The translations under genes were made by a program, and so were the position numbers. Of a stretch of 32,000 bases of DNA, positions 1 to 21,143 are shown piece by piece (positions within the stretch are counted from its first letter, which is position 1; each line of letters begins with the position of its first letter). Under the pieces are notes generated by a model. That model saw only the letters and a program-made list of their open reading frames with translations, ran no database searches and had not been told where the DNA came from. The stretch is from Metamycoplasma auris (GTDB lineage Bacteria > Bacillota_I > Bacilli_A > Mycoplasmatales > Metamycoplasmataceae), in the NCBI RefSeq assembly GCF_003253435.1, contig NZ_QKUB01000001.1, positions 62,555-94,554 of the forward strand. Direction: 5' to 3'.

Positions 1-444
1 TCTCCCAAGAAGGAATCATGATTATCAAAATCAATTATAGATATTATTGAAACGGTTATTTTAGATCAGAATGCTGGGGAAAACATCAAACAAGTTGATA
101 TGCAAACAATTGAACATATAATGCCCCAAGATTTAAGTGAATGAAAAAACGACTTAGGTTATGAAGAGGAAAAATTGAAACAATTGCACTCAAAGTGTAA
201 GGATCAAATCGGTAATTTAATTCATTTAAATAATAAACAAAATACCAAAATATCTAACAAGTCATTTAAGCATAAAGTAAATGAAGTGTATAAAAAATCA
301 TCTTCAATACTAGTAACAGCTAAAGGTCTTGAAAAGTATGGATTAAAAAATATTTGTGAATATGATCAATGAACATTTGACATCATTGAGGAAAGAACTG
401 AAAAATTAGGAAAAGTCATTATTGATATAATGAATAGTGACTAA
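1..444 (+). CDS. DUF1524 / GmrSD-family His-Me finger nuclease domain protein, C-terminal part (5' end lies outside the window)
   Basis: Frame 1 is open from nt 1 to TAA at 442-444 when three in-frame TGA codons are read as Trp. The translation contains QTIEHIMPQ followed by IGNLIHLNNKQNTKISNKSF, the H-x2-P ... GNL ... N-x-N pattern I associate with DUF1524 domains of type IV restriction (GmrSD-like) proteins. Confidence 0.6.
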
Positions 445-473
445 AAATAACTTATTTTGTTGAAATAAAAATA

Positions 474-503
474 GACTACGAATATGAAGGGTAGTCATTT
501 TTT
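474..503 (+). terminator. weak rho-independent terminator candidate after the DUF1524 gene
   Basis: GACTAC (474-479) pairs with GTAGTC (491-496) across an 11-nt loop, followed by ATTTTTT. Confidence 0.35.
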
Positions 504-566
504 ATTCCTTTTTTTAGACTTTTTTTGTCATTTTAGCATTATTTTTTAGTGTTTTTTTGCTATTTT
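498..566 (+). promoter_or_regulatory. helically phased T-tract array (predicted intrinsically bent DNA) abutting lipoprotein promoter 1
   Basis: T runs lie at 498-503, 509-515, 520-526, 531-534, 542-547, 552-558 and 563-566. Their start-to-start spacing is 11, 11, 11, 11, 10, 11 nt. The array ends at the -35 hexamer. Confidence 0.5.
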
Positions 567-592
567 GGCAAAAAAAAAAAAAAAAGTAAAAT
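565..592 (+). promoter_or_regulatory. sigma-70-type promoter with poly(A) spacer (A16), lipoprotein 1
   Basis: TTGGCA (565-570), an A run at 570-585 (16 A) plus G586, then TAAAAT (587-592). The spacer is 16 nt. The same architecture recurs at 1616-1644 and 6555-6583. Confidence 0.65.
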
Positions 593-715
593 TTGGACAT
601 AGCAATGCATAGTCCCTAAAAAACCAAACAAAAAATGTGGAGTCTAGACAATAAAAAATTGCTATATAAATTCAAATTAAGATATTTAAATATTTAAATT
701 AAATTAGGAAGTTAT

Positions 716-1558
716 ATGAAAAAACTAAACAAATTTTTATTTGCTTTAGGTTCCGTTGCTTCATTAGCATCACTACCATTAATTGCTGCAAAATGTGGTG
801 GTACTAAGGAAGAAAGCAAACCTGAAGCAAATAAGAATCCAAAAGATCCTAATCCTGGAAATAAGGATCCAAACACTAAAAATAAAATTAATTTAAGTTC
901 CTTAGAAAGTTCAGTTGTAGATAAGATAAAAAAATCAATCAAAAATAATAATGTAGAACAAGCAGAAATTTTAGATATTTTAAAAGAAGTTAAAGGTCTA
1001 GAAACTTTAAGATTCGGTGATTTTAAAACTCTTGATTTTAAAGATTTCAAATTAACAATTGAAGCTAATACATCCTCTTCTTTAATTGAAGGAAAATTTG
1101 AATTTTCAGAAGAAATTAAAAAAGAAGAGAATGCAAAATTAAAGACAGAATTAAATATGTTTTTAAAAGAAAAACTTGTTGCTAATGTAAAAGTAAAGAG
1201 AGCAGATTTGATTGACTCCTTAGACTTTGATAACGTTAAGACAAAAGCAGACCTTTACGATGTCAAAGAAGAAATTAAAGATTTCATTAATGATTACTAT
1301 TCTGTTTTTAGAGAAAAACTTAATGTTTTATCTAGAAATGTAGATTTCAATTTTAAAGAAGTATCTGAAGATGAACTAAGATTATTTATTCCTGAAGAAT
1401 GATTACTAGAAATTGAAAAAGAAACAAAACAAGAAGATAAGCATAAGGTATTCGAACAACTACTATTGAACACACAAGTAATCAAAGAGGCTTTACAAGC
1501 TCAATATCAAGAACAAACTAAAGAAGTTGAAAAATTATTCAATACAACCTTAAAATAA
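716..1558 (+). CDS. surface lipoprotein, poly(A)-promoter family member 1 (280 aa)
   Basis: ATG at 716 follows an AGGAAG Shine-Dalgarno sequence. The signal peptide is MKKLNKFLFALGSVASLASLPLIAAKC with lipobox LIAAKC. The listed ORF 716-1402 ends in TGA (Trp) and the frame continues to TAA at 1556-1558. The mature part is charged and Lys/Glu/Asn-rich. Confidence 0.85.
755..792 (+). repeat. 38-nt block identical to 6708-6745 (signal-peptide coding cassette shared by lipoproteins 1 and 3)
   Basis: GTTGCTTCATTAGCATCACTACCATTAATTGCTGCAAA is present at both positions. Near-identity continues through TGTGGTGGTAC.AAGGAAGAAA. Confidence 0.9.
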
Positions 1559-1570
1559 TCTAAAACTAGA

Positions 1571-1597
1571 ATACCGCTATTAAAGCGGTATTTTTTT
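1571..1597 (+). terminator. rho-independent terminator of lipoprotein 1
   Basis: ATACCGCT (1571-1578) pairs with AGCGGTAT (1584-1591) across a 5-nt loop, followed by a T7 run. Confidence 0.8.
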
Positions 1598-1615
1598 AAT
1601 TAAATTTTTGCTATT

Positions 1616-1644
1616 TTGGCAAAAAAAAAAAAAAAAAGTAAAAT
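1616..1644 (+). promoter_or_regulatory. sigma-70-type promoter with poly(A) spacer (A17), lipoprotein 2
   Basis: TTGGCA (1616-1621), an A run at 1621-1637 (17 A) plus G1638, then TAAAAT (1639-1644). The spacer is 17 nt. The upstream context TTTTGCTATTTTGGC is identical to locus 1. Confidence 0.65.
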
Positions 1645-1735
1645 TTTTCGAGTATTGCAAAACTGGCCCAAAGCAATACAAATAATACCTAATTTAAATA
1701 TTTAATTATTACTTATAAGGATTACATATTATTTT

Positions 1736-2197
1736 ATGAAAAAACTAAACAAATTTTTAATTGCTTTAGGTTCAGTTTCTTCTCTAGCAGCATTACCTTT
1801 AATTGCAGCATCATGTGATAAAACTAAAGAAGAATCCAAAGAAAGTAAAGATAATAAAAACAATGAAGGAAACTCAAACACAACAACTCCTTCAACCTCT
1901 CCCTCTGATTCATCTATAGAACAACCACAATCTGACCAACCATCTACATCGCCTTCAACATCTCCTAAATCTCCAGTCACTCCTAAAGGCGAGAGAGAAA
2001 GCAAAAAATATATTAGTAAACCTGCACTAGAAACAGTAAATAAACCAGGTAGTTCAATTCAAATTATTAAATTTGAAATTGGTACACCAAGTGGGGATAT
2101 ATTTTCAGAAGAACCCGGAGATAGAACAAGTTCCGATCGTGAAGATAGAATTGAGGATTGATTATATAAGAATAAAAAAACTATTAAAAAGCAATAG
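1736..2197 (+). CDS. surface lipoprotein, poly(A)-promoter family member 2 (153 aa), Pro/Ser/Thr-rich
   Basis: The signal peptide is MKKLNKFLIALGSVSSLAALPLIAASC (lipobox). The listed ORF ends at TGA 2159-2161 and the frame continues to TAG at 2195-2197. The mature region contains TTTPSTSPSDSSIEQPQSDQPSTSPSTSPKSPVTPKG. Confidence 0.8.
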
Positions 2198-2235
2198 TTA
2201 AAACTAAAAACATTGATTTTCTTTTAAATTTAATT

Positions 2236-2278
2236 AAAACGTTATTTTGCATTACATCATAGCAAACTAACGTTTTTT
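2236..2278 (+). terminator. possible terminator after lipoprotein 2
   Basis: AAAACGTTA (2236-2244) pairs with TAACGTTTT (2268-2276), followed by T residues. The 23-nt loop is long, so the call is weak. Confidence 0.35.
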
Positions 2279-2522
2279 ATTTATCTAAATTTTCAATTGA
2301 TTCAATCGTTTATCAAATCATTAATGCAATATTTTAATCAAATAGTTGAATGCTACCAAAAAATTAAAATATGAATTTATTATTTAAAATTCTTTAAAAA
2401 ATTCAGTATTTTAAATCAATTAATTCAATCTTTGATTTATTTTAATTGAATTAGGAATACAATCTTTTTTAAGGAGAGAATCTTTTTTCTCCTTAAAAAA
2501 ATAAAAAAAGGAATATAAATTT

Positions 2523-4353
2523 ATGCTTGCAAGTAAAAATAAAAAATTTGGAATGCTTCTATCTTTAATGACTATAGCTACAATGCCAATCGTTACTCTT
2601 TCAGCTAGTTGTCAAACTAAAGCAAAAAATGATAATGCGCTTAATATGAATGTAACCAAAGCTTCATTTAAAAACTTCAACAAAGAATACACAATAAAAG
2701 ATGTAGATTTATCATTATATACAATTAAAGATGAAGAAGAAATGGTATATGTTGATTTAGATGAATTTTTAAAAAATTTAGAAGGACTATTTGATAATAA
2801 GTCATTTAGTTCTCGAATCGATGAAAAGAATAATAAGAAGTTCTATGAAATTAAAAATGATAAGAATGAAGTAGTAAATAGATTAGTTATTGACTGAGAA
2901 AACAATAAAATAACAACTCCAAGTACAAATTTCTTTTTTGAAATTCAAAAAGAACAACAACTAACAGATAATAGTCAATTCCTTGAAACAAACTATGAAA
3001 GCAAAAAGGATAACGAGAAATCTGAGGTAGTTTTTGATCTAGGTAAATATAAGATGGATATTTTATATAAGGATAAAAAAATCTTGTTACCTTTTAATGT
3101 ATTCAATACATTATTTATGAGTTATAGTTTTAATAACATTTATTGAAATGGCAAAAGTCTTACAAACCTAGAAGCAGGAATTGATGCACACGGTAATACT
3201 GAGAAGGAAATAAAAGCAAGAATTAAAAAAGACCAAGAAATAAAAAATAAACCTCAAACTAAAAAAGAGCGTGAAATTAACTTTAATCATCTAGCATTTG
3301 CAATGGATAATTTCTATGGTCTAAAATACCATAAAGAAATTAAGTCTTTTGAAGAATGAATCGGGCCTGATTATAAGCAAAAACTTCTTTCAATTGACCC
3401 TAAGGTATTCCATCAAGCATACATTGATATATTCCATAAAAAATTGAATGAATTACATACAAGAATTAATACATTATCATATTATGATGAATATGATGAA
3501 AAAGAAACAACAAGAGAAAAGTTAATCAAAGAAAAAGAAAAGAATTTTGGTAAATTCTTTAATGATTTCAATAAAAATAAGGCTGAGTTAGTTAAAAATT
3601 TTGAGGCTAAGTTTGGAAAGAAAATTGATGAATTTGGTCCAAATGACTATATTAGATACCATGGTAATACTGCGATTGTAACAACTCTTGGATTTGAAGA
3701 TGGAACTAAAGATGAAATAGCAAAAGAAAATGAAGCTTGAAAACACGACACTTATTTTCTAATGCGTCATTTAATGAAACAAATTGAAGAGAGAAATAAA
3801 AAAGCAAAGAATAAAGAAAAAGAAGGTAACAAAGAACTCAAAGAAATTAAAAATATTGTTCTAGATCTATCTTTAAATGGTGGTGGTAGTGTTAATTCAA
3901 TGGTTAGAGTTTTTAGGCTTTATGACTGATAAAGAAGTTTTGAATCGTGAATATAATATCCTTGATAAAAGAGCTGATCTAAGCAAATCTAAAGTCGATA
4001 CCAATGGTGATAAAAACTATGATAATGATGCATACACTAAGTATAATTGAAGTCTACTTGTTGGAATTAATACATTTAGTGCAGCTAATCAATTAACAAG
4101 TATTGTTAAAGAAATGGGTATTGCAAAAATCATTGGTAAACAAGCAGGAGGTGGTATGTCTGCAATTATGCCTCTTGTATTAAATGATGGAACAACAATT
4201 ACCATTAGTGGTCCAAATAATGCAGTCTTTGGTGAAAAAAATGAATCTATTGAAGGGGGAATTACACCTGATATTAATTTAGAATACAAAGACTTCTATA
4301 ATGATGATGCAATCGACAAGGCTCTAAATGAAGCTTCAAAACTAAGTAAATAA
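2523..4353 (+). pseudogene. S41-family (C-terminal processing / tail-specific type) peptidase lipoprotein, paralog 1, with a +1 frameshift at a T5 run
   Basis: The signal peptide is MLASKNKKFGMLLSLMTIATMPIVTLSASC. The frame starting at 2523 runs through TGA-Trp codons to TAA at 3930-3932, and the homologous C-terminal part continues in the +1 frame (open from 3877) to TAA at 4351-4353. The total is 1831 nt, which is 610 codons plus 1 nt. It is collinear with paralog 2 throughout and carries the motifs DLSLNGGGS, NTFSAAN and IIGKQAGGG. Confidence 0.8.
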
Positions 4354-4372
4354 GAGTCAATTTTTAAACTTT

Positions 4373-4404
4373 AATCTCCTTGTCTATTTATGCAAGGAGA
4401 TTTT
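4373..4404 (+). terminator. rho-independent terminator after S41 paralog 1
   Basis: AATCTCCTTG (4373-4382) pairs with CAAGGAGATT (4393-4402) as a 10-bp stem with a 10-nt loop, followed by TT. Confidence 0.7.
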
Positions 4405-4631
4405 AATTATTAAAAATTTAACAAAATTTAGTATTTTTCGATGAAAAAATTCTTATATTTTTATAAAAATATAAGAGTTTATATATCAATCTATTCAATT
4501 AGTTTTTTGTTGGAATTTTTAATAAAAAGAATGTAAAAATAAGTTGAAATGAATGATTATTCAATATACATTGAGTGTAATTCAATATAATTTATCTAAG
4601 GGCTTATGCCCAAAAACATAAAAGGATTTAT

Positions 4632-6437
4632 ATGGAAAAAACATCGAATAAAACAAGGTTAGTTAAGTTTATATTACCAATACTAAGTGGAAGTATTTTG
4701 CCAATAGCAATGCTATCAGCAAAATGCCAAACAAAAGAATATTTAGATGATCTTACAATTACAAAACATTCATTTAAAAACTACAATCCAGAGTTTAATG
4801 TAAAAGAAAAAGCAGATTTAAAAGCTTATTGAAAAAATGAAGAAATGTATGTTGATGTTGATGAATTTTTAAGTACACTTGAAGGTTTTATTGATAACTC
4901 AAAATTTACAACAAAAATTGACCTAAATAAAAAAGAAAAATCGTATATATTAAAAGGTTCAACACTTGGAAATGAGGGAGAATCTGAAACACAACCTGAT
5001 GCTTTAGTTATCAATTGGGAAAAAAATACAATCTCAGTTCCTAACACTTGATTCTTTTATTCAATTATAAAACCACAACAATTAACTGATGGTAATCAAT
5101 TTCTTAAGAGTGAATATGAACAAAAGATTGATGCTACAGGAGATGTTGTATTTGATTTAGGCAAATATAATATGGATATCTTGTTTAAAGAAAATAAGGT
5201 TCTAGTACCATTTTCAGTCTTTAATACTTTGTTTGTAACACAAAATTACAATAATATTTATTTCAATGGCAAGACTTTTACAAATCTAGAAGCAGGAATT
5301 GATTCTTATTCTTCTTTTGGAACTCCTAAAGAAGCCAAATTAAGAATTCAAAAGGATGCTACAATTGCTAAGAAAAAACCTACAAAAAGACAAAGAGAAA
5401 TTAATTTTCATCATTTATCTTTTGTAATGGATTATTTCTATGGTCTTAAGAGATATAAAAAATTTGATTCTTTTGAAAAATATATTGGTGAAGATTATAA
5501 GAAAAAATTTCTATCAACGAATCCAGAAGAATTTCATCAAGCATATATTGATGTATTTCACAAGAAACTAAATGAATTACATACAAGAATTGATTCATTA
5601 TCTTACTACAATGGATATACTGAAGAATCACTAAGAAATTCTAAGTTAGCTAAGGATTCAAAGAAATATTATGGCGATTACTATAATGAATTCTTTAAGA
5701 CTCAAGGTGAGTTACAAGATAACTTTAAAAAAACATTTAAAAAAGATCTAGACAAATTAGAATTAGATGACCATATTAGATTTGTTGGTGATGACACAGC
5801 AATATTAAGCACATTTGGGTTTGCAGATGCAACTAAAGATCAAATTGCCGACAAAAATAACACTTGAAGATATGACACTTATTTCTTAATGAAGAATTTG
5901 ATGGAAAAAATAAAAGCAAAGAAAGAAATAAAAAATATAATCCTTGACTTATCCTTAAACGGTGGTGGTAGTGTGCAAGCTATGATAAGAACTCTTGGAT
6001 TTTTGACTAATAATAAAGTCGTAAATCGTGAATATGATGTTCTTAACAAAATCGGTTCAAAAACACTATCACAAGTTGATGTTTTTGGGGATAATAAATT
6101 TACAAAACATAATTATGATAAATATAAATGAACTGCCTTAGTTGGAATTAATACATTTAGCGCAGCTAACCAAGCTACAAGTATTATAAAAGAAATGGGC
6201 ATTGCTAAGATAATTGGCCAAAAAAGTGGTGGTGGTATGTCAGCTGTTATCCCTGCTACTTTATTAGATGGAACAACAATTACAATGAGTTCTCCAAATA
6301 ATGCCACATATGGTGAAAAATACGATGACATTGAAGGCGGAATTGAACCTTATGTTAAATTAGATTATAAAGATTTTTATGATAATGAAAAAGTTAAGCA
6401 AGCAGCATTAGAAGCTCATAAAATCAAACAAAAATAA
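4632..6437 (+). CDS. S41-family peptidase lipoprotein, paralog 2 (601 aa, intact)
   Basis: Five listed ORF fragments (4632, 4845, 5172, 5889, 6195) share one frame and are joined by TGA-Trp codons. The signal peptide ends LSAKC. Motifs present are DLSLNGGGS, NTFSAANQ (putative nucleophile Ser) and IIGQKSGGG (putative catalytic Lys region). Confidence 0.85.
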
Positions 6438-6459
6438 TGAATAAATAATAAGAAAAATG

Positions 6460-6492
6460 GAATTTAGGAAAAAAACTAAATTCTATTTTTTT
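6460..6492 (+). terminator. rho-independent terminator after S41 paralog 2
   Basis: GAATTTAG (6460-6467) pairs with CTAAATTC (6476-6483) across an 8-nt loop, followed by TATTTTTTT. Confidence 0.75.
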
Positions 6493-6554
6493 GTCTAGAA
6501 GATCTACAAAAATTACTTATTTTCATTGATTTTATGCTCCAAAATTAATTACTT

Positions 6555-6583
6555 TGCGCAAAAAAAAAAAAAAAAAGTAAAAT
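6555..6583 (+). promoter_or_regulatory. sigma-70-type promoter with poly(A) spacer (A17), lipoprotein 3
   Basis: TGCGCA (6555-6560; alternatively TTGCGC at 6554-6559), an A run at 6560-6576 (17 A) plus G6577, then TAAAAT (6578-6583). Confidence 0.6.
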
Positions 6584-6668
6584 GGGGGATGTAACAAAAT
6601 AGGAATTGTTACGTTTAATGTATAACAAAAATTTAAATATTTAAATAGATTAAGGAGACTTAATAATT

Positions 6669-7214
6669 ATGAAAAAACTTAATAAGTTTATATTAGCTTT
6701 AGGAAGCGTTGCTTCATTAGCATCACTACCATTAATTGCTGCAAATTGTGGTGGTACCAAGGAAGAAAATAAAACTCCAACTGAAAAAGACCCAGGTACA
6801 GGTAAAAAAGAAGATGATAAAGATGGAGGCAAAAAAGATAATGAAAGTGAAGTAAAGGATGACAAAACCAAATTCACTGAAGCTTCTGATAAAGCAATCA
6901 AAACCTTAAAGGAATTAGCTGAAAAAGTTAATAAATATGAATACGAAAAAGAAAAAGCTAAAAAAGTAGAAGGTTTTGGAGATCTAACAGATGAACAATA
7001 TAAGGGTGTTAAAAAACAAATAACAGATCGTATTGATCATCTAGTTAAACAAATTGAAAGTTGAAAGACTAGCGGTCCTAAAAACATTGAAGAAGTTAAC
7101 TTAGCAAAAGGCAATCATAAAACATATGATGAAGCATATGATGCTATGATAAAAAGTCAATTAGATGGCGCTATAAAACAACTTGAATCAATTTCAAAAG
7201 ATTTAACAAAATAA
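6669..7214 (+). CDS. surface lipoprotein, poly(A)-promoter family member 3 (181 aa)
   Basis: An AAGGAG Shine-Dalgarno sequence precedes the start. The signal peptide is MKKLNKFILALGSVASLASLPLIAANC. The listed ORF ends at TGA 7062-7064 and the frame continues to TAA at 7212-7214. The mature part is Lys/Asp/Glu-rich. Confidence 0.85.
6708..6745 (+). repeat. 38-nt block identical to 755-792
   Basis: See the feature at 755-792. Confidence 0.9.
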
Positions 7215-7223
7215 TTACAACAA

Positions 7224-7255
7224 AAAAAGTTGGGCGATAATGCTCAACTTTTTAT
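7224..7255. terminator. bidirectional terminator between convergent lipoprotein 3 and rlmH
   Basis: AGTTGGGC (7228-7235) pairs with GCTCAACT (7242-7249) with one G:U pair, flanked by an A run upstream and a T run downstream. Confidence 0.6.
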
Positions 7256-7683
7256 TTGTGGTATTTAATATTCTTTTTAATTGCTAACCCACGATAAATT
7301 TGCTCAATTAACATTAGACGAAACATTTGATGTGGGAATGTCATTTTTGAAAAGCAAATTTTATTTTGAAATTTACTTTCATCAACGCCATTCGAACCAC
7401 CAATAATAAAAGTAATATTATCCTCAACAAACAAATCTGAGAATTCTTCACTACTCATTTGCTTACCTTGCAATGATAAATAAAAGACTTTCGAATTTTT
7501 TGGAATCTTAGATAAAATTGCCTCAGTTTCTTTTGCAATTTTAAGCTCGATATTATCATTTAGATTTTCTTTTATTTCAATAAGATTTATTGAAGCTAAA
7601 AAATTGATTTTCTTAAGATATGAATCATAAATTTTTTTATGATCCTGACTTAGAGTTCCAATTGCAATTAAATTTATTTTCAT
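7252..7683 (-). CDS. rlmH: 23S rRNA (pseudouridine1915-N3)-methyltransferase RlmH (SPOUT family)
   Basis: 143 aa. The C-terminal FSKMTFPHQMFRLMLIEQIYRG...YHK is typical of the RlmH/YbeA family. Confidence 0.85.
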   Translation of the reverse strand: MKINLIAIGTLSQDHKKIYDSYLKKINFLASINLIEIKENLNDNIELKIAKETEAILSKIPKNSKVFYLSLQGKQMSSEEFSDLFVEDNITFIIGGSNGVDESKFQNKICFSKMTFPHQMFRLMLIEQIYRGLAIKKNIKYHK

Positions 7684-13655: not shown

Positions 13656-14851
13656 TTATTTTGCACTTATTCATCTTGCTTTCTTAATTTTGATTTTGGT
13701 TCAAGTTTTTTGCTTGATTTTTATACCAATGTAATGTACAAATACAACAACTGGTATACCCCAAACATATGAAAATGCAATATCACTAACCCAATGACCG
13801 CGGTTAACAATTAAAGCAAAAGTCATAGACCAAAAATAAATCTGGTAAATAATAATTCAAATTACTTTCTTTCAATTTAATTTTTTATTGTTTGAAAGAA
13901 AGAAGAAAAATATAAGTCCAATGTTAAGAGTAGCAATTACATGTCCTGAAGGAAATGCTCATCGAAATCACTTATTAAAAAAATTCATTCTTGGATCAGG
14001 ATGAAAGGCTTTACCATTAATGACATACCAAGGAAGTTTGATGTATGAAGGGATATTTCAACGAAATACACCATCACCATAATTAAAACCATGTCTAAAG
14101 ACATTTTGATTTAAATAATAACTAACTCATTCAGGATGCTCTTGTTTTACACTTTCAAGTAAATCTCCATAAATAACATTGTAGTAGTATGGCCTTGATG
14201 TCATCCCTTTAAGCAAAAGGATAATAAAATAAGAAATTAAGTTAAATAAAATAAATTTAATTGATTCAACTCAATATTTGTTTGTTAAAAAATCCTTTGA
14301 TTTAGAAAATTTAAGATGTAAAAACAAACCTCCGAAAATAAAGAAAACTGAATTTAGAAGAATACTTAAAATTAATGCTACTTTACGATATATAAACTTT
14401 GTAGCATATACCGCATCTCCCCCCCAGTTCCAAAACCGTTGCCGGTTCTTATTTCATTATGTGCACTTAATGAAATCATCAAAATATAGATTATTGGATA
14501 TATAAAATAAACTAAAGGTAATATTCATTTAGTTTTAGATCAAAAATTTCTTTGGTTATTCTTAGTCTTGTATGAATAAAGACTTTCAATGATAACCATA
14601 ACAACAAAAAACAAAAAGACACCTAATAGCGTGTTACCTGAAATCTCAAAAAAAGCTGATCAATATCTTATAAATTCAGATTTTAAAAATCCTTGTTCAA
14701 AGAATTTAGCAAGTTTCAAATCAACTGAATAAGGAGATGAAATAATAAAGCTAATTAGTTAAATAAAAAATAATAGAAGTAAGCCAAAAAATACTAAATT
14801 AAAGATTGTGTCTTTTTCTTTTTTAATTTTATAACTTACTTTGTTATCCAT
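13656..14851 (-). pseudogene. PAP2-superfamily (type 2 phosphatidic acid / lipid phosphatase) membrane protein, disrupted by an in-frame TAA and a frameshift at a G7 run
   Basis: The minus-strand translation shows the three PAP2 motifs: KGMTSRP, PSGH (AFPSGHVIA) and NRGHWVSD (SRxxxxxHxxxD type). The ATG at 14849-14851 opens a frame that meets TAA at 14759-14761 after 30 codons. The same frame reopens, then must shift at C7 (14419-14425, G7 on the coding strand) to reach the motif-bearing frame ending at TAA 13656-13658. Confidence 0.75.
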
Positions 14852-19180: not shown

Positions 19181-19215
19181 TAAATGTAACTTATAATACA
19201 CATTTATGATAAAAT
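19181..19215 (+). promoter_or_regulatory. candidate operator plus promoter of the HTH-methyltransferase gene
   Basis: The inverted repeat TAAATGT (19181-19187) / ACATTTA (19200-19206) brackets TATAAT (19192-19197). An extended -10 TGATAAAAT (19207-19215) ends 8 nt before the ATG at 19224. No Shine-Dalgarno sequence is visible. Confidence 0.35.
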
Positions 19216-19223
19216 GAATAATC

Positions 19224-20273
19224 ATGAAATCAGAATTATTAAGATCATTTGGAACTAAAATCAAAACATTACGTGAAAAAAGAGGATTATCTCAAAATGA
19301 GCTTTCGCAGTTATGCAATTTTAAAAGAGAATATATTTCAAAAATTGAAAACGGAAGTTCTAACGTTACAATTGAAACTATACAAAAATTAGCTAATTCC
19401 TTAAATATAAAAATGAGTCAATTACTTGAAGATAATAATGACCTAAAGTCAAAACCTTTTGTAAAATGAGCTGGTGGTAAGAATCAAATTCTTAATAAAT
19501 TAATTGAATTTATACCAAAAGAATTTAATCGATACTATGAGCCATTTATTGGTGGAGGAGCACTCCTTTTTAATCTTAAGCCTAATACAATAATAATCAA
19601 TGATAGTAATAAGGAATTAATGTATGCATATCAATGTTTTTTAGATAAATACAAACTTAATAAGTTAATTAAAGAATTAGAGATGCATGAGTTAAATCAT
19701 TCTGAAGAATATTATTATCAAGTAAGAAATTTAGATCAGAGCAATTCTTTTGAGAAATTAAAAGACTATCAAAGGGCAGCAAGGTTAATATATTTAAATA
19801 AGGCTTGTTTTAATGGACTTTATAGAGTTAATAGTAAAGGTTTTTATAACACTCCATATGGAAATAAGCAAAAAATTAATGCTTTTGATAAAGAAAATTT
19901 TTTAGATATTTATAAGTATTTTTCTATTTCTAATGTAGCTATTAAAAATGAAGACTTTGAAGAATGTGTTAAAGATGCAAAAAAAGGTGATTTTGTTTAT
20001 TTTGATCCTCCTTATGACAGTTACACTGACAAGAATTCATTTACAAATTATGATTCTAAAAAATTTGGTAAGGATGAACAAATTAGATTAAGAAATGTTG
20101 CTCTTAAGTTATCAAAAAGAGGTGTAAAAGTGATGCTTTCAAACCACAACACTCCCTTTATAAATGAATTGTATAAGGATTTTAATAAACACGTTATTGA
20201 GGCAAGAAGAATAATTAACTCTGATGCTAAAAGAAGAGGAAATGTTGAAGAATTAATAATTACTAACTTCTAG
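19224..20273 (+). CDS. XRE-family HTH domain fused to a Dam-type (D12 class, alpha group) N6-adenine DNA methyltransferase
   Basis: ORFs 19224-19469 and 19620-20273 share one frame and are joined by TGA at 19467-19469, giving 349 aa. Residues 1-~70 form an HTH (LSQNELSQLCNFKREYISKIENG). These are followed by PFVKWAGGK, EPFIGGGA (FxGxG) and FDPPY motifs. Confidence 0.85.
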
Positions 20274-20285
20274 TAAAATTAAATT

Positions 20286-21143
20286 ATGAATAAAAATATT
20301 GACGAATTACTCAATACAATGAAAAAAGGAATTGAAGATTGAGATTACTATGTTAATTTTTCAAAAGTAGAATGAAATTTTATTTCAAAAAGAGAAAAAC
20401 TGGATAAATTAAATTCAATAATTGAGTCAACAAATATAGAAAGCGATTTTACAAATCTAATAAAGAACGACCATTCCATTTTATAAATAGTACCTATTTT
20501 ATTAGGAACAAGAGATACAAAAATATTAATAAATGATGAAGGCAGAATTATTGAGTTTGATTTTAAAAATATTAACCATACTTTTGAGGAGTATGCAAAT
20601 TTTTTAGAAGAAATTGGATTATTCAAATTTCTTCAGAAAATGAAAATGTCTTCCCTTATCGACTATGTTTTAGGAATTGAGGTTGGACTTGATAGTAATT
20701 CAAGAAAAAATCGTAATGGCAAAAAGATGGAGCAATTGGTTGAAAAATATTTAGTCGATTCTAATTTCAAAAAAGAAGTTGATTTTTTTACCCAAATGAC
20801 CACTAAAAAGCTTATAGATATTTTTAAAATTGATATTTTAAATGAGTTACCAATTAAAAAATTTGACTTTGTTATAAAGTATAAAAAACAAATATATGCA
20901 GTTGAATGTAATTATTATAAGAGTGGTGGTTCGAAAGTTTCTGAAATAGTAAGGTCTTATAAAAATCTATTAGATGATTTAAGAAAGATCAATAACTTCC
21001 ATTTTCTATGAATTACGGACGGATTTGGTTGAATTAAAGAAAAAAACCATCTAAAAGATGCCTTATTATCAATAGATAATATTTTTAATCTTGATGATTT
21101 AGAGAAGAAGGGAATACTTAATATATTAGAATCAATAAAGTAG
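20286..21143 (+). pseudogene. DpnII/MboI-family type II restriction endonuclease with an in-frame TAA at codon 67
   Basis: The 286-codon frame starts 12 nt after the methyltransferase stop. Family-typical blocks are present: VPILLGTR, GIEVGLDSNSRKNRNGK, VECNYYKSGGSK and FLWITDGFGW. TAA at 20484-20486 interrupts HSIL*IVPILLG. All other breaks are TGA-Trp codons. Confidence 0.75.

What the first reader, a model, noticed from the sequence alone, without database searches (positions are those of the whole stretch)
1616..1644. Lipoprotein promoter 2: A17 tract with a 17-nt spacer
The sequence is TTGGCA-A16-G-TAAAAT, with the same 15 nt upstream (TTTTGCTATTTTGGC) as locus 1 but one more A. The 17-nt spacer is the canonical optimum, so this copy is predicted to be ON if the hexamer assignment is right. 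It drives the only Pro/Ser/Thr-rich family member.
Basis: partly seen in the sequence, partly recalled or inferred. Interest (0 to 1): 0.65.

Follow-up and report, generated by a model that had tools for sequence, protein, structure and literature searches.

The report
Poly(A) switch promoter of mycoplasma lipoprotein
This is a mycoplasma surface-lipoprotein promoter whose two recognition boxes are separated by a run of 17 A's, a slippage-prone design already known from Mycoplasma hyorhinis to flip surface genes on and off at random, so it is a clean new example of a known trick.

Summary
Positions 1616-1644 read TTGGCA-A16-G-TAAAAT: an A17 tract at 1621-1637 and a 17-nt spacer. The 16 nt upstream are identical to locus 1, which has A16. 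A third copy (TTGCGC-A17-G-TAAAAT) lies at 6554-6583. Three such sites occur against 0 expected by chance.

The window is a Mollicutes genome (27% GC, TGA = Trp) related to Metamycoplasma auris. Each tract precedes a monocistronic gene for a variable-surface-lipoprotein-type protein (NCBIfam NF033817).

Five paralogs in M. auris 15026 share the whole cassette: terminator, TTTGGC, A(n), GTAAAAT, a leader stem-loop with compensatory changes, a palindromic A/T box, SD and signal peptide. Their tracts are 13-16 A's, and the lp3 ortholog has A14 where the window has A17.

This is the promoter-spacer homopolymer switch known from M. hyorhinis vlp genes. I fetched real vlp promoters, which carry A16-17 but a different 3' flank. 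The family lacks Vlp coding repeats and fails the Vlp-specific models. I therefore call it a new member of a known kind.

The "17 = ON" call is plausible but untestable here, because no reads, RNA-seq or second strain were available. Interest is modest.

The parts
1568..1594 (+). Intrinsic terminator of the upstream lipoprotein gene lp1 (11-bp stem, T run). It insulates promoter 2 from read-through.
   Evidence: Terminator scan; fold -13.4 kcal/mol, z = -4.5. M. auris paralogs have an equivalent hairpin plus T run at the same place.
1605..1620 (+). Conserved T-rich upstream block TTTTTGCTATTTTGGC, identical to 554-569 at locus 1
   Evidence: repeat family D7; conserved in M. auris paralogs.
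1616..1621 (+). -35 hexamer TTGGCA (5/6 match to TTGACA). Its last base is the first A of the tract.
   Evidence: TTTGGC is conserved immediately 5' of the tract in 7 of 8 family promoters.
1621..1637 (+). Homopolymeric A17 tract, the proposed slippage-prone switch element
   Evidence: Paralogs and orthologs carry A13-A17 (plus one degenerate A10 copy) with the same flanks.
1639..1644 (+). -10 hexamer TAAAAT, preceded by an invariant G. There is no TGn extended -10.
   Evidence: GTAAAAT is invariant in all family copies.
1652..1679 (+). Leader stem-loop (GTATTGC / GCAATAC, 14-nt loop) beginning 8 nt after the -10, so at or near the 5' end of the predicted transcript
   Evidence: -7.1 kcal/mol. 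The equivalent stem in 6 other family leaders has 9 pairs, 3 of them with compensatory changes.
1691..1709 (+). A/T palindromic box (AATTTAAATATTTAATTAT; family consensus ATATTTAAATATTT[AG]AATA) upstream of the ribosome-binding site
   Evidence: Near-invariant across 8 promoters in two species. Window count is 8 against 1.0 expected, with 6 of the 8 at the three loci. M. hyorhinis vlp leaders have a similar box.
1717..1721 (+). Shine-Dalgarno AAGGA
   Evidence: Read from the sequence; position conserved in the family alignment.
1736..2197 (+). lp2: 153-aa prolipoprotein (genetic code 4; TGA = Trp at 2159-2161). Signal peptide MKKLNKFLIALGSVSSLAALPLIAAS|C, an S/T/P-rich linker, and a short C-terminal domain.
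   Evidence: NCBIfam NF033817 scores 49.3 bits against a cutoff of 22. The identical 153-aa product is on record as P0001.
2236..2279 (+). Terminator-like hairpin plus T run ending the lp2 transcription unit
   Evidence: Fold -12.0 kcal/mol, z = -5.2.
565..592 (+). Sister promoter 1: TTGGCA-A15-G-TAAAAT (A16 tract 570-585, 16-nt spacer), driving lp1 (716-1558)
6554..6583 (+). Sister promoter 3: TTGCGC-A17-G-TAAAAT (A17 tract 6560-6576, 18-nt spacer when anchored on TTG), driving lp3 (6669-7214)
   Evidence: The M. auris 15026 ortholog has TTTGGC-A14-GTAAAAT.

Best explanation
Positions 1616-1644 are the sigma-70-type promoter of a monocistronic variable-surface-lipoprotein gene (lp2). The whole -35/-10 spacer is a hypermutable A tract. 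Slipped-strand mispairing during replication adds or removes A's, which changes both the distance and the rotational phasing between TTGGCA and TAAAAT. That raises or lowers transcription initiation. Mollicutes lack MutS/MutL mismatch repair (established knowledge). With three such promoters in this locus (spacers 16, 17 and 18) and more elsewhere in the family, each cell lineage would display a stochastic, heritable and reversible combination of surface lipoproteins, which is a bet-hedging defence against host antibody. In the sequenced consensus the lp2 spacer is 17 nt, the optimum, so lp2 is the copy most likely to be ON. lp1 (16 nt) and lp3 (18 nt, weaker -35) are likely reduced or OFF. 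The conserved 5'-proximal leader stem-loop probably stabilises the mRNA, and the A/T box before the SD probably aids translation initiation. Shown: the anatomy, its conservation, tract-length polymorphism among paralogs and orthologs, and the protein family. Inferred: high-frequency switching, the ON length, the transcription start and the roles of the leader elements.
For: (1) Canonical hexamers with a 17-nt spacer, 10/12 match. (2) There is no TGn extended -10 (the sequence is AAG-TAAAAT), so the promoter should depend on a correctly spaced -35. (3) Three tracts of 16-17 A's against 0 expected, each 85-123 nt upstream of a paralogous lipoprotein start codon. (4) In 8 promoters from two species at about 78% nucleotide identity, the flanks TTTGGC and GTAAAAT are conserved while the tract is 13, 14, 14, 14, 16, 16, 17 or 17. 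The lp3 ortholog has A14 against A17. The A14 call is reproduced in an independent run of strain 15026. (5) All three proteins pass NCBIfam NF033817 'variable surface lipoprotein' at 41-49 bits against a cutoff of 22. (6) Each gene is bracketed by terminators. (7) No reading frame longer than 50 codons spans any tract, so it is not a coding frameshift switch. (8) Precedent: transcription of M. hyorhinis vlp, M. arthritidis maa2 and M. mycoides vmm is switched by insertions or deletions in the -35/-10 spacer (PMC2268961; PMC10502178). Real vlp promoters fetched here carry A16, A16, A17 and A17. (9) A family member without the tract exists in the same genome (P0019), so the tract is a specific add-on and not a general feature of the 5' regions.
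Against: There is no direct evidence of switching. Only one public run carries this strain, and no read-level or transcript data could be examined. Tract differences between paralogs and species show evolutionary lability, not high-frequency reversibility. None of the five M. auris 15026 lipoprotein-gene promoters has a 17-nt spacer (13-16), so either all are OFF there or the ON length is not strictly 17. The -35 element is generally weak in many Mollicutes promoters, and the transcription start is unmapped. In M. agalactiae a poly(T) tract next to the vpma -10 proved irrelevant to phase variation (PMC2268961), so a tract near a promoter does not guarantee a switch. The exact tract length in the assembly may be off by one.
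Confidence: 0.75

Rival explanations
1. It is a fixed A-tract promoter with no switching. The A run is simply an A/T-rich rigid spacer, or a curved-DNA or UP-like element, of a constitutive lipoprotein promoter. The length differences among paralogs are slow evolutionary drift with little effect on expression.
For: No clonal variation data are available. The M. auris 15026 A14 tract is identical in two independent runs of that strain. The M. agalactiae poly(T) tract next to the vpma -10 plays no part in switching (PMC2268961).
Against: Tracts of 16-17 identical bases are intrinsically unstable, especially without mismatch repair (established knowledge). The lengths span 13-17 with strictly conserved flanks. 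Spacers of 13-14 nt are incompatible with a working -35/-10 promoter, which fits silent copies better than constitutive ones. The homologous logic in vlp was shown experimentally.
Confidence: 0.12
2. The tract modulates expression, but not through -35/-10 spacing. The real start site would lie elsewhere, for example a -10-like TATTTAAAT in the conserved palindromic box close to the SD. The upstream A tract would then act at a distance (DNA bending, or phasing of an activator or nucleoid-protein site), or it would lie within a long 5' UTR.
For: The A/T box is the most conserved non-coding block of the cassette and is also present in vlp leaders. In vlp the sequence directly 3' of the tract (GATTGGGAAAAT) does not place an obvious -10 against the tract. 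In the Spiroplasma MAG the same A(n)-GTAAAAT motif sits only 9 nt from the ATG.
Against: GTAAAAT abuts the tract in every copy, and TTGGCA lies exactly at consensus distance. A leader hairpin with compensatory changes starts 8-9 nt after TAAAAT, as expected for a 5'-terminal mRNA structure. A/T-rich palindromes are frequent in 27%-GC DNA.
Confidence: 0.08
3. The exact length is a sequencing or assembly artefact. The tract is real, but '17 versus 16' at loci 2 and 1 reflects homopolymer miscalling, so the predicted ON/OFF states are meaningless.
For: Long homopolymers are error-prone on all platforms. The Logan k=31 contig for this gene begins exactly at the first A of the tract (L001). The repeat shared with locus 1 would put the break 14 nt further upstream, so the actual break point is compatible with mixed-length k-mers or a coverage drop-out.
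Against: L001 shows at least 17 A's, the same number as the window, but it is truncated at the tract and comes from the same run (SRR4235353) as the window's strain, so it does not independently confirm the length. Mixed lengths in the reads would also be the expected signature of genuine phase variation. This artefact would not change what the element is.
Confidence: 0.05

Closest known systems
Vlp system of Mycoplasma (Mesomycoplasma) hyorhinis: poly(A) tract in each vlp promoter (Yogev et al. 1991; Citti & Wise 1995)
   Same: Multiple monocistronic surface-lipoprotein genes, each with its own promoter carrying a 16-17-base A tract (real vlp promoters in L092 carry A16, A16, A17 and A17). 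A T-rich, loosely similar left flank (TTTTTTCATATTTGC against TTTTTGCTATTTTGGC). A long leader (about 85-125 nt) with a small stem-loop and an A/T box before the SD. A related prolipoprotein signal peptide (NF033817). Switching by insertions or deletions in the promoter spacer is documented for vlp. That ON corresponds to exactly 17 A's in vlp is my recollection of Citti & Wise 1995, not something checked here.
   Different: The 3' flank differs: G+TAAAAT abuts the tract here, whereas vlp has G[AC]TTGGGAAAAT. The lp genes have no tandem coding repeats like Vlp region III, so no size variation is predicted. The Vlp-specific N-terminal models score far below cutoff (18-32 bits against 160-175). 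The organism is in a different genus (Metamycoplasma, hominis group). The start codon is ATG here and GTG in vlp.
Vsp (M. bovis) and Vpma (M. agalactiae) variable lipoproteins
   Same: The signal peptide and lipobox style (...SVASLASLPLIAAKCGGTKEE) matches the same NCBIfam domain. The resemblance to the Vsp/Vpma leader peptides is from memory. These families also have a conserved 5' UTR plus signal-peptide cassette and a modular, recombining gene family. The M. auris P0002 gene is a chimera of lp1-like and lp2-like halves.
   Different: Vsp and Vpma switch by Xer1-mediated site-specific inversion that brings a single promoter to different genes (PMC2268961). Here all three genes lie on the same strand, each with its own promoter, and no recombinase is encoded in the 32-kb window.
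Promoter-spacer repeat switches in other bacteria: M. mycoides vmm (TA repeats), M. arthritidis maa2, N. meningitidis porA (poly-G), H. influenzae hifA/hifB (TA repeats)
   Same: A simple-sequence repeat occupies the -35/-10 spacer, and unit gain or loss changes promoter strength, often in a graded way around 17 nt (PMC3899988; PMC2268961).
   Different: The repeat unit and the organisms differ. Here the spacer consists almost entirely of the repeat (16 of 17 nt).
Coding-region poly(A) frameshift switches (M. hominis Vaa, M. fermentans P78; from memory) and poly-G/poly-A tracts in M. agalactiae lipoprotein genes (PMC2824730)
   Same: They use homopolymer slippage and act on surface proteins of mycoplasmas.
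   Different: Those tracts lie inside reading frames and act on translation. Here the tract is intergenic, and no frame longer than 50 codons crosses it.

Membership tests
Vlp-type promoter-spacer poly(A) phase-variation switch (mechanistic class) | Homopolymeric A tract lying between the -35 and -10 elements of the gene's own promoter | tested here: met
   TTGGCA-A16G-TAAAAT at 1616-1644. The same layout occurs at 565-592 and 6554-6583.
Vlp-type promoter-spacer poly(A) phase-variation switch (mechanistic class) | Tract length is polymorphic while the flanks are conserved | tested here: met
   A13 to A17 across 8 paralogous and orthologous promoters in two species, and A14 against A17 at the lp3 ortholog. 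This was tested only between paralogs and species, not between clones or strains of one species.
Vlp-type promoter-spacer poly(A) phase-variation switch (mechanistic class) | High-frequency, reversible ON/OFF switching of transcription that correlates with tract length | not testable with these tools
   There are no reads, RNA-seq data or second isolate. Only SRR4235353 carries this strain.
Vlp-type promoter-spacer poly(A) phase-variation switch (mechanistic class) | Each gene is a separate transcription unit encoding a surface lipoprotein | tested here: met
   Terminators at 1568-1594 and 2236-2279. Signal peptide plus lipobox Cys; NF033817 hit.
Vlp protein family of M. hyorhinis (VlpA-G) | Match to Vlp-specific N-terminal models (NF045729 VlpA_Nterm, NF045730 VlpC_Nterm) above the curated cutoff | tested here: not met
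   Scores of 18-32 bits against cutoffs of 160-175. Only the signal peptide aligns.
Vlp protein family of M. hyorhinis (VlpA-G) | C-terminal region III made of in-frame tandem repeats that give size variation | tested here: not met
   TRF at minimum score 30 finds no coding tandem array in lp1, lp2 or lp3.
Vlp protein family of M. hyorhinis (VlpA-G) | Promoter and leader sequence homologous to vlp | tested here: inconclusive
   The left flank and the overall layout are similar, but the 3' flank and the leader sequence differ.
NCBIfam NF033817 Mplas_variab_LP (variable surface lipoprotein N-terminal domain) | Score above the curated cutoff of 22 bits | tested here: met
   lp1 46.6, lp2 49.3 and lp3 41.0 bits.
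Vsp/Vpma-type inversion shufflon | Adjacent tyrosine recombinase (Xer1), and a single promoter moved by inversion between oppositely oriented genes | tested here: not met
   No recombinase was found among the window ORFs scanned. All three lp genes are on the + strand with individual promoters.
Coding-region homopolymer frameshift switch (Vaa/P78 type) | Tract lies inside the reading frame | tested here: not met
   The longest stop-to-stop segment over any of the three tracts is 50 codons. The tract is 98 nt upstream of the ATG.

The most novel reading that the evidence does not exclude
The TTGaCA-A(n)-G-TAAAAT cassette may be a portable, repeatedly evolved or horizontally spread 'contingency promoter module' of low-GC wall-less and related bacteria. 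The same core drives 38 tandem surface-protein genes in a Spiroplasma MAG and 8 genes in a 30%-GC MAG labelled Muribaculaceae. In the M. auris lineage it is coupled to a conserved post-transcriptional module (a 5'-terminal stem-loop plus a palindromic A/T box). Together these would set a graded 16/17/18 rheostat instead of a binary switch. Under this reading lp1, lp2 and lp3 form a three-level expression ladder, not one ON gene and two OFF genes.
Probability: 0.15. Interest if true: 0.5.

Novelty: new member of a known kind. Interest (0 to 1): 0.3.

Why it matters
It extends the classic M. hyorhinis Vlp paradigm (a poly(A) tract in the promoter spacer) to a ruminant ear-canal Metamycoplasma lineage. 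The M. auris genome announcement does not mention such a family (PMC3707572), and the literature searches found no description of one in this clade. It is an unusually canonical version: 5/6 hexamers, a spacer made almost entirely of the tract, and no extended -10. That makes it a convenient system for measuring how spacer length sets promoter strength in Mollicutes. In practice, it flags these genes as phase-variable antigens whose annotation, assembly (contigs break at the tracts) and expression state should not be taken from a single consensus sequence.

Tried and rejected
**Same-strain and second-strain comparison**
- RlmH used as an anchor found only SRR4235353.
- lp1 is not on record.
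- SRR29904085 proved 100% identical to M. auris 15026, so it is the same strain.
- P0003, P0005 and P0008 are not on record.

**Metagenome scan**
- The scan for TTGGC-A12+...GTAAAAT returned 5 unrelated contigs at 34-46% GC with no lipoprotein downstream.

**Literature**
- The primary Vlp papers (PMC175216, PMC453155, PMC94424) are not held.
- The reviews confirm the mechanism but not the exact ON length.

**Other checks**
- Rfam finds nothing in 400-7300 apart from a sub-threshold CRISPR-DR chance hit.
- MAFFT misaligned the lp2 leader because its hairpin arms differ, so I used a six-sequence alignment and treated lp2 separately.

**Readings rejected**
- A minus-strand terminator (T17): the nearest hairpin is 14 nt away from the T run, and no convergent gene ends there.
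- A coding frameshift switch.
- An inversion shufflon: no recombinase, and all genes lie on the same strand.

Full report
**1. The observation**

The window is 27% G+C and its genes are interrupted by TGA when read with code 11 but are continuous with code 4. It is therefore a Mollicutes genome.

Positions 1616-1644 read TTGGCAAAAAAAAAAAAAAAAAGTAAAAT. This breaks down as TTGGCA (1616-1621), an A17 tract (1621-1637), a 17-nt spacer (A16+G, 1622-1638) and TAAAAT (1639-1644). A generic consensus scan lists it as a 10-of-12 match with a 17-nt spacer.

The 16 nt before the tract (TTTTTGCTATTTTGGC) and the 9 nt after it (GTAAAATTT) are identical to locus 1 at 554-594, which has A16. A third copy, TTGCGC-A17-G-TAAAAT, lies at 6554-6583.

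A16+GTAAAAT occurs three times against 0.00 in 100 shuffles. From base composition, about 0.004 runs of 16 or more A's or T's are expected in 32 kb. The only reservation is that the exact length of a 17-base homopolymer in an assembly is a consensus call.

**2. What surrounds it**

Each tract lies 85-123 nt upstream of a paralogous gene:
- lp1, 716-1558, 280 aa
- lp2, 1736-2197, 153 aa
- lp3, 6669-7214, 181 aa

All three proteins begin MKKLNKF..ALGSV.SLA.LPLIAA[KSN]C. All three pass the NCBIfam domain model NF033817 'variable surface lipoprotein' (41-49 bits, cutoff 22). They fall far below the Vlp-specific models.

The mature part of lp2 is 36% Ser+Thr+Pro, against 13% and 14% for lp1 and lp3.

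lp2 is bracketed by an upstream terminator at 1568-1594 (-13.4 kcal/mol, z = -4.5) and a downstream one at 2236-2279 (-12.0 kcal/mol, z = -5.2). It is a monocistronic unit.

No reading frame longer than 50 codons crosses any tract. No recombinase is encoded in the window. No Rfam family matches the region, and the lp genes contain no tandem coding repeats.

**3. Relatives**

The closest proteins are lipoproteins of Metamycoplasma auris 15026. Its contig AORI01000008 is syntenic with the window (lp, S41 peptidase, S41 peptidase, lp, rlmH, mnmG) at about 78-79% nucleotide identity.

A scan of one genome per species for A12+GTAAAAT found six places in M. auris 15026. Five of them lie in front of MKK[IL]N[KN]FLLALGS... 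lipoprotein genes.

Aligning these five with the three window promoters shows one conserved cassette:
- a terminator hairpin plus T run;
- TTTTT[GA]CTATTTTGGC;
- A(n);
- GTAAAAT;
- 8-9 nt of spacing;
- a stem-loop;
- a near-invariant palindromic box, ATATTTAAATATTT[AG]AATA;
- SD;
- ATGAAAAAA.

Only the number of A's differs freely: 13, 14, 14, 14 and 16 in M. auris, and 16, 17 and 17 in the window. The lp3 ortholog has A14 where the window has A17. The A14 call is reproduced in an independent run of strain 15026.

The leader stem has 9 predicted pairs, of which 3 show compensatory double changes. lp2 keeps a 7-bp stem built from entirely different arms.

The palindromic box occurs 8 times in the window against 1.0 expected, and 6 of those 8 are at the three loci.

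A further family member from the same genome (P0019) has the signal peptide but no tract. The poly(A) promoter is therefore a specific add-on.

**4. Mechanism**

The sequence has a 5/6 -35 hexamer and a 5/6 -10 hexamer, with no TGn extended -10. A promoter of this type needs a correctly spaced -35 contact.

A run of 17 identical bases is among the most slippage-prone sequences known, and Mollicutes lack MutS/MutL mismatch repair (established knowledge). Gain or loss of an A changes the spacer by 1 bp, which is about 34 degrees of twist. The expected result is graded or ON/OFF changes in initiation.

Anchored on TTG, the three loci have spacers of 16, 17 and 18 nt. lp2 is therefore the best candidate for the ON copy in the sequenced consensus. 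This is an inference.

Spacers of 13-14 nt in the M. auris paralogs are incompatible with a working -35/-10 promoter. They fit a design in which most copies are silent.

The stem-loop at the predicted 5' end would be expected to protect the mRNA from 5'-end-dependent decay in a Firmicute-like RNA-decay system (inference from B. subtilis work). The role of the A/T box is unknown; translation enhancement or protein binding are both possible.

**5. Comparison with what is known**

Reviews and primary papers state that insertions or deletions in the -35/-10 spacer switch vlp (M. hyorhinis), maa2 (M. arthritidis) and vmm (M. mycoides) (PMC2268961; PMC10502178; PMC3899988).

I fetched a real vlp locus (CP150431, L092). 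Its promoters read TTTTTTCATATTTGC-A16/16/17/17-G[AC]TTGGGAAAAT... Their leaders are about 125 nt long and contain a small hairpin and an ATTTTAAATTTAAATAAATA box before the SD.

The logic, the tract length and the cassette layout are therefore the same. The differences are:
- the sequence abutting the tract on its 3' side differs;
- the Vlp-specific protein models are not met;
- there are no region-III-like repeats.

The signal peptide resembles Vsp/Vpma (from memory), but the inversion machinery of those systems is absent.

The family works like Vlp and belongs to the broad 'Mplas_variab_LP' group. It is not a Vlp ortholog.

The M. auris genome announcement does not mention such a family (PMC3707572), and the literature searches found no description of one in this clade.

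**6. Limits**

Switching itself was not shown. Only one public run holds this strain. Its k=31 contig for lp2 starts exactly at the first A of the tract. The repeat shared with locus 1 would have put the break 14 nt further upstream. This is compatible with mixed tract lengths in the reads, but equally with homopolymer sequencing error.

A poly(T) tract next to the M. agalactiae vpma promoter turned out to be irrelevant to switching. Proximity of a tract to a promoter is therefore not proof of a switch.

**7. Verdict**

It is a new member of a known kind: a Vlp-type promoter-spacer poly(A) contingency switch in the M. auris lineage. Interest is 0.3. Confidence in the mechanism class is 0.75, and roughly 0.55 for 'lp2 is ON at A17'.

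Noticed in passing
window 2523-4353 (frameshift at T5 run 3910-3914): The first of two paralogous S41-peptidase lipoprotein genes between lp2 and lp3 is split into two frames (2523-3932 and 3877-4353). Removing one T from the run at 3910-3914 restores ...MVRVLGFMTDKEV..., which matches the intact paralog (4632-6437) and the 609-aa M. auris ortholog. It is a pseudogene, a sequencing error, or a short-tract switch.
   Followed up: partly
window 716-2197 versus L002 64-693 (M. auris 15026 AORI01000008): M. auris P0002 (209 aa) is a chimera. Its N-terminal domain matches lp1 and its C-terminal 50 aa match lp2. Relative to M. auris, the window therefore has an extra segment (about 1138-2035) containing the lp1 3' half, a terminator, promoter 2 and the lp2 5' half. 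Alternatively, M. auris fused two neighbouring genes by recombination.
   Followed up: partly
L011-L083 (Spiroplasma sp. MAG OZ245361.1): There are 38 unique ACTTGAC-A(13-16)-GTAAAAT sites (mostly A15 and A14, with one A16). Each sits 9 nt before the ATG of tandem genes of about 1.76 kb encoding MLKKVFAVFPVFIFF... secreted or surface proteins. This looks like a very large poly(A)-promoter contingency family. With the ATG so close to the -10, the mRNAs would be nearly leaderless.
   Followed up: partly
L008, L018, L029, L033, L035, L040, L045 (MAG CAZWKF01, labelled uncultured Muribaculaceae): Eight T[AG]GAC-A(13-20)-GTAAAAT sites lie 23-50 nt upstream of genes encoding MKNKKMIMALAITLMAIGFA... 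membrane-anchored proteins. The contigs are about 30% G+C, which seems low for Muribaculaceae (from memory), so the bin label is doubtful.
   Followed up: partly
window as a whole versus L016/L002; L101: P0019 is named 'variable surface lipoprotein [Metamycoplasma auris]' and comes from the same run (SRR4235353) as the window's strain. Yet the window is only about 78-79% identical in DNA to M. auris 15026 across rlmH and mnmG. The two genomes deposited as M. auris therefore look like different species.
   Followed up: partly
L101 369-929: A family member in the window's genome (signal peptide MKKTTKFLLALGSIVSLTTLPLIAAKCGGTKEE) has no poly(A) tract and no GTAAAAT promoter in the 368 nt upstream of it.
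   Followed up: yes
window 14419-14425 (C7 on +, G7 on -), upstream of the PAP2 gene 13656-14204 (-): The only long G/C run in the window sits at a frame junction on the minus strand. The frame that reads through into the PAP2-family protein is open from just after the tract, and a different frame is open before it. This may be a poly-G frameshift switch or a pseudogenised 5' part of the gene.
   Followed up: partly
L014 (M. auris AORI01000011), promoter copy TTTGCAC-A16-GTAAAAT: A copy of the poly(A) promoter stands in front of a non-lipoprotein ORF (MSKYAYNLKKKVIYDFLLGENLTNVSKKYEINISTVNGW..., which looks like an HTH or transposase). Its leader resembles the extra segment of about 40 nt that makes the lp1 leader in the window 123 nt long.
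   Followed up: no
L093 834-850 and L094 2824-2845 (M. auris 15026): There is a degenerate promoter copy with only A10 (TACTTTGGC-A10-GTAAAAT) and no lipoprotein leader. A different tract, CC-A14-GATAAAAT, lies about 160 nt upstream of the S/T-rich lipoprotein P0004, downstream of rpsO.
   Followed up: no
window 510-570: A 32-nt unit (TTTTTTAGACTTTTTTTGCCATTTTAGCATTA) is present in 1.9 copies just upstream of promoter 1. The -35 region of locus 1 is therefore preceded by a degenerate duplicate of itself.
   Followed up: no
window 19206-21143 and 1-444: There is a DpnII-type restriction-modification pair. One gene is a D12-class (Dam-like) adenine methyltransferase fused to an N-terminal XRE HTH (19206-20273). 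The other is a DpnII endonuclease ORF covering only the C-terminal half of the Pfam model (20640-21143), so it is probably truncated. The window starts inside a GmrSD_C-type restriction endonuclease gene (1-444).
   Followed up: partly
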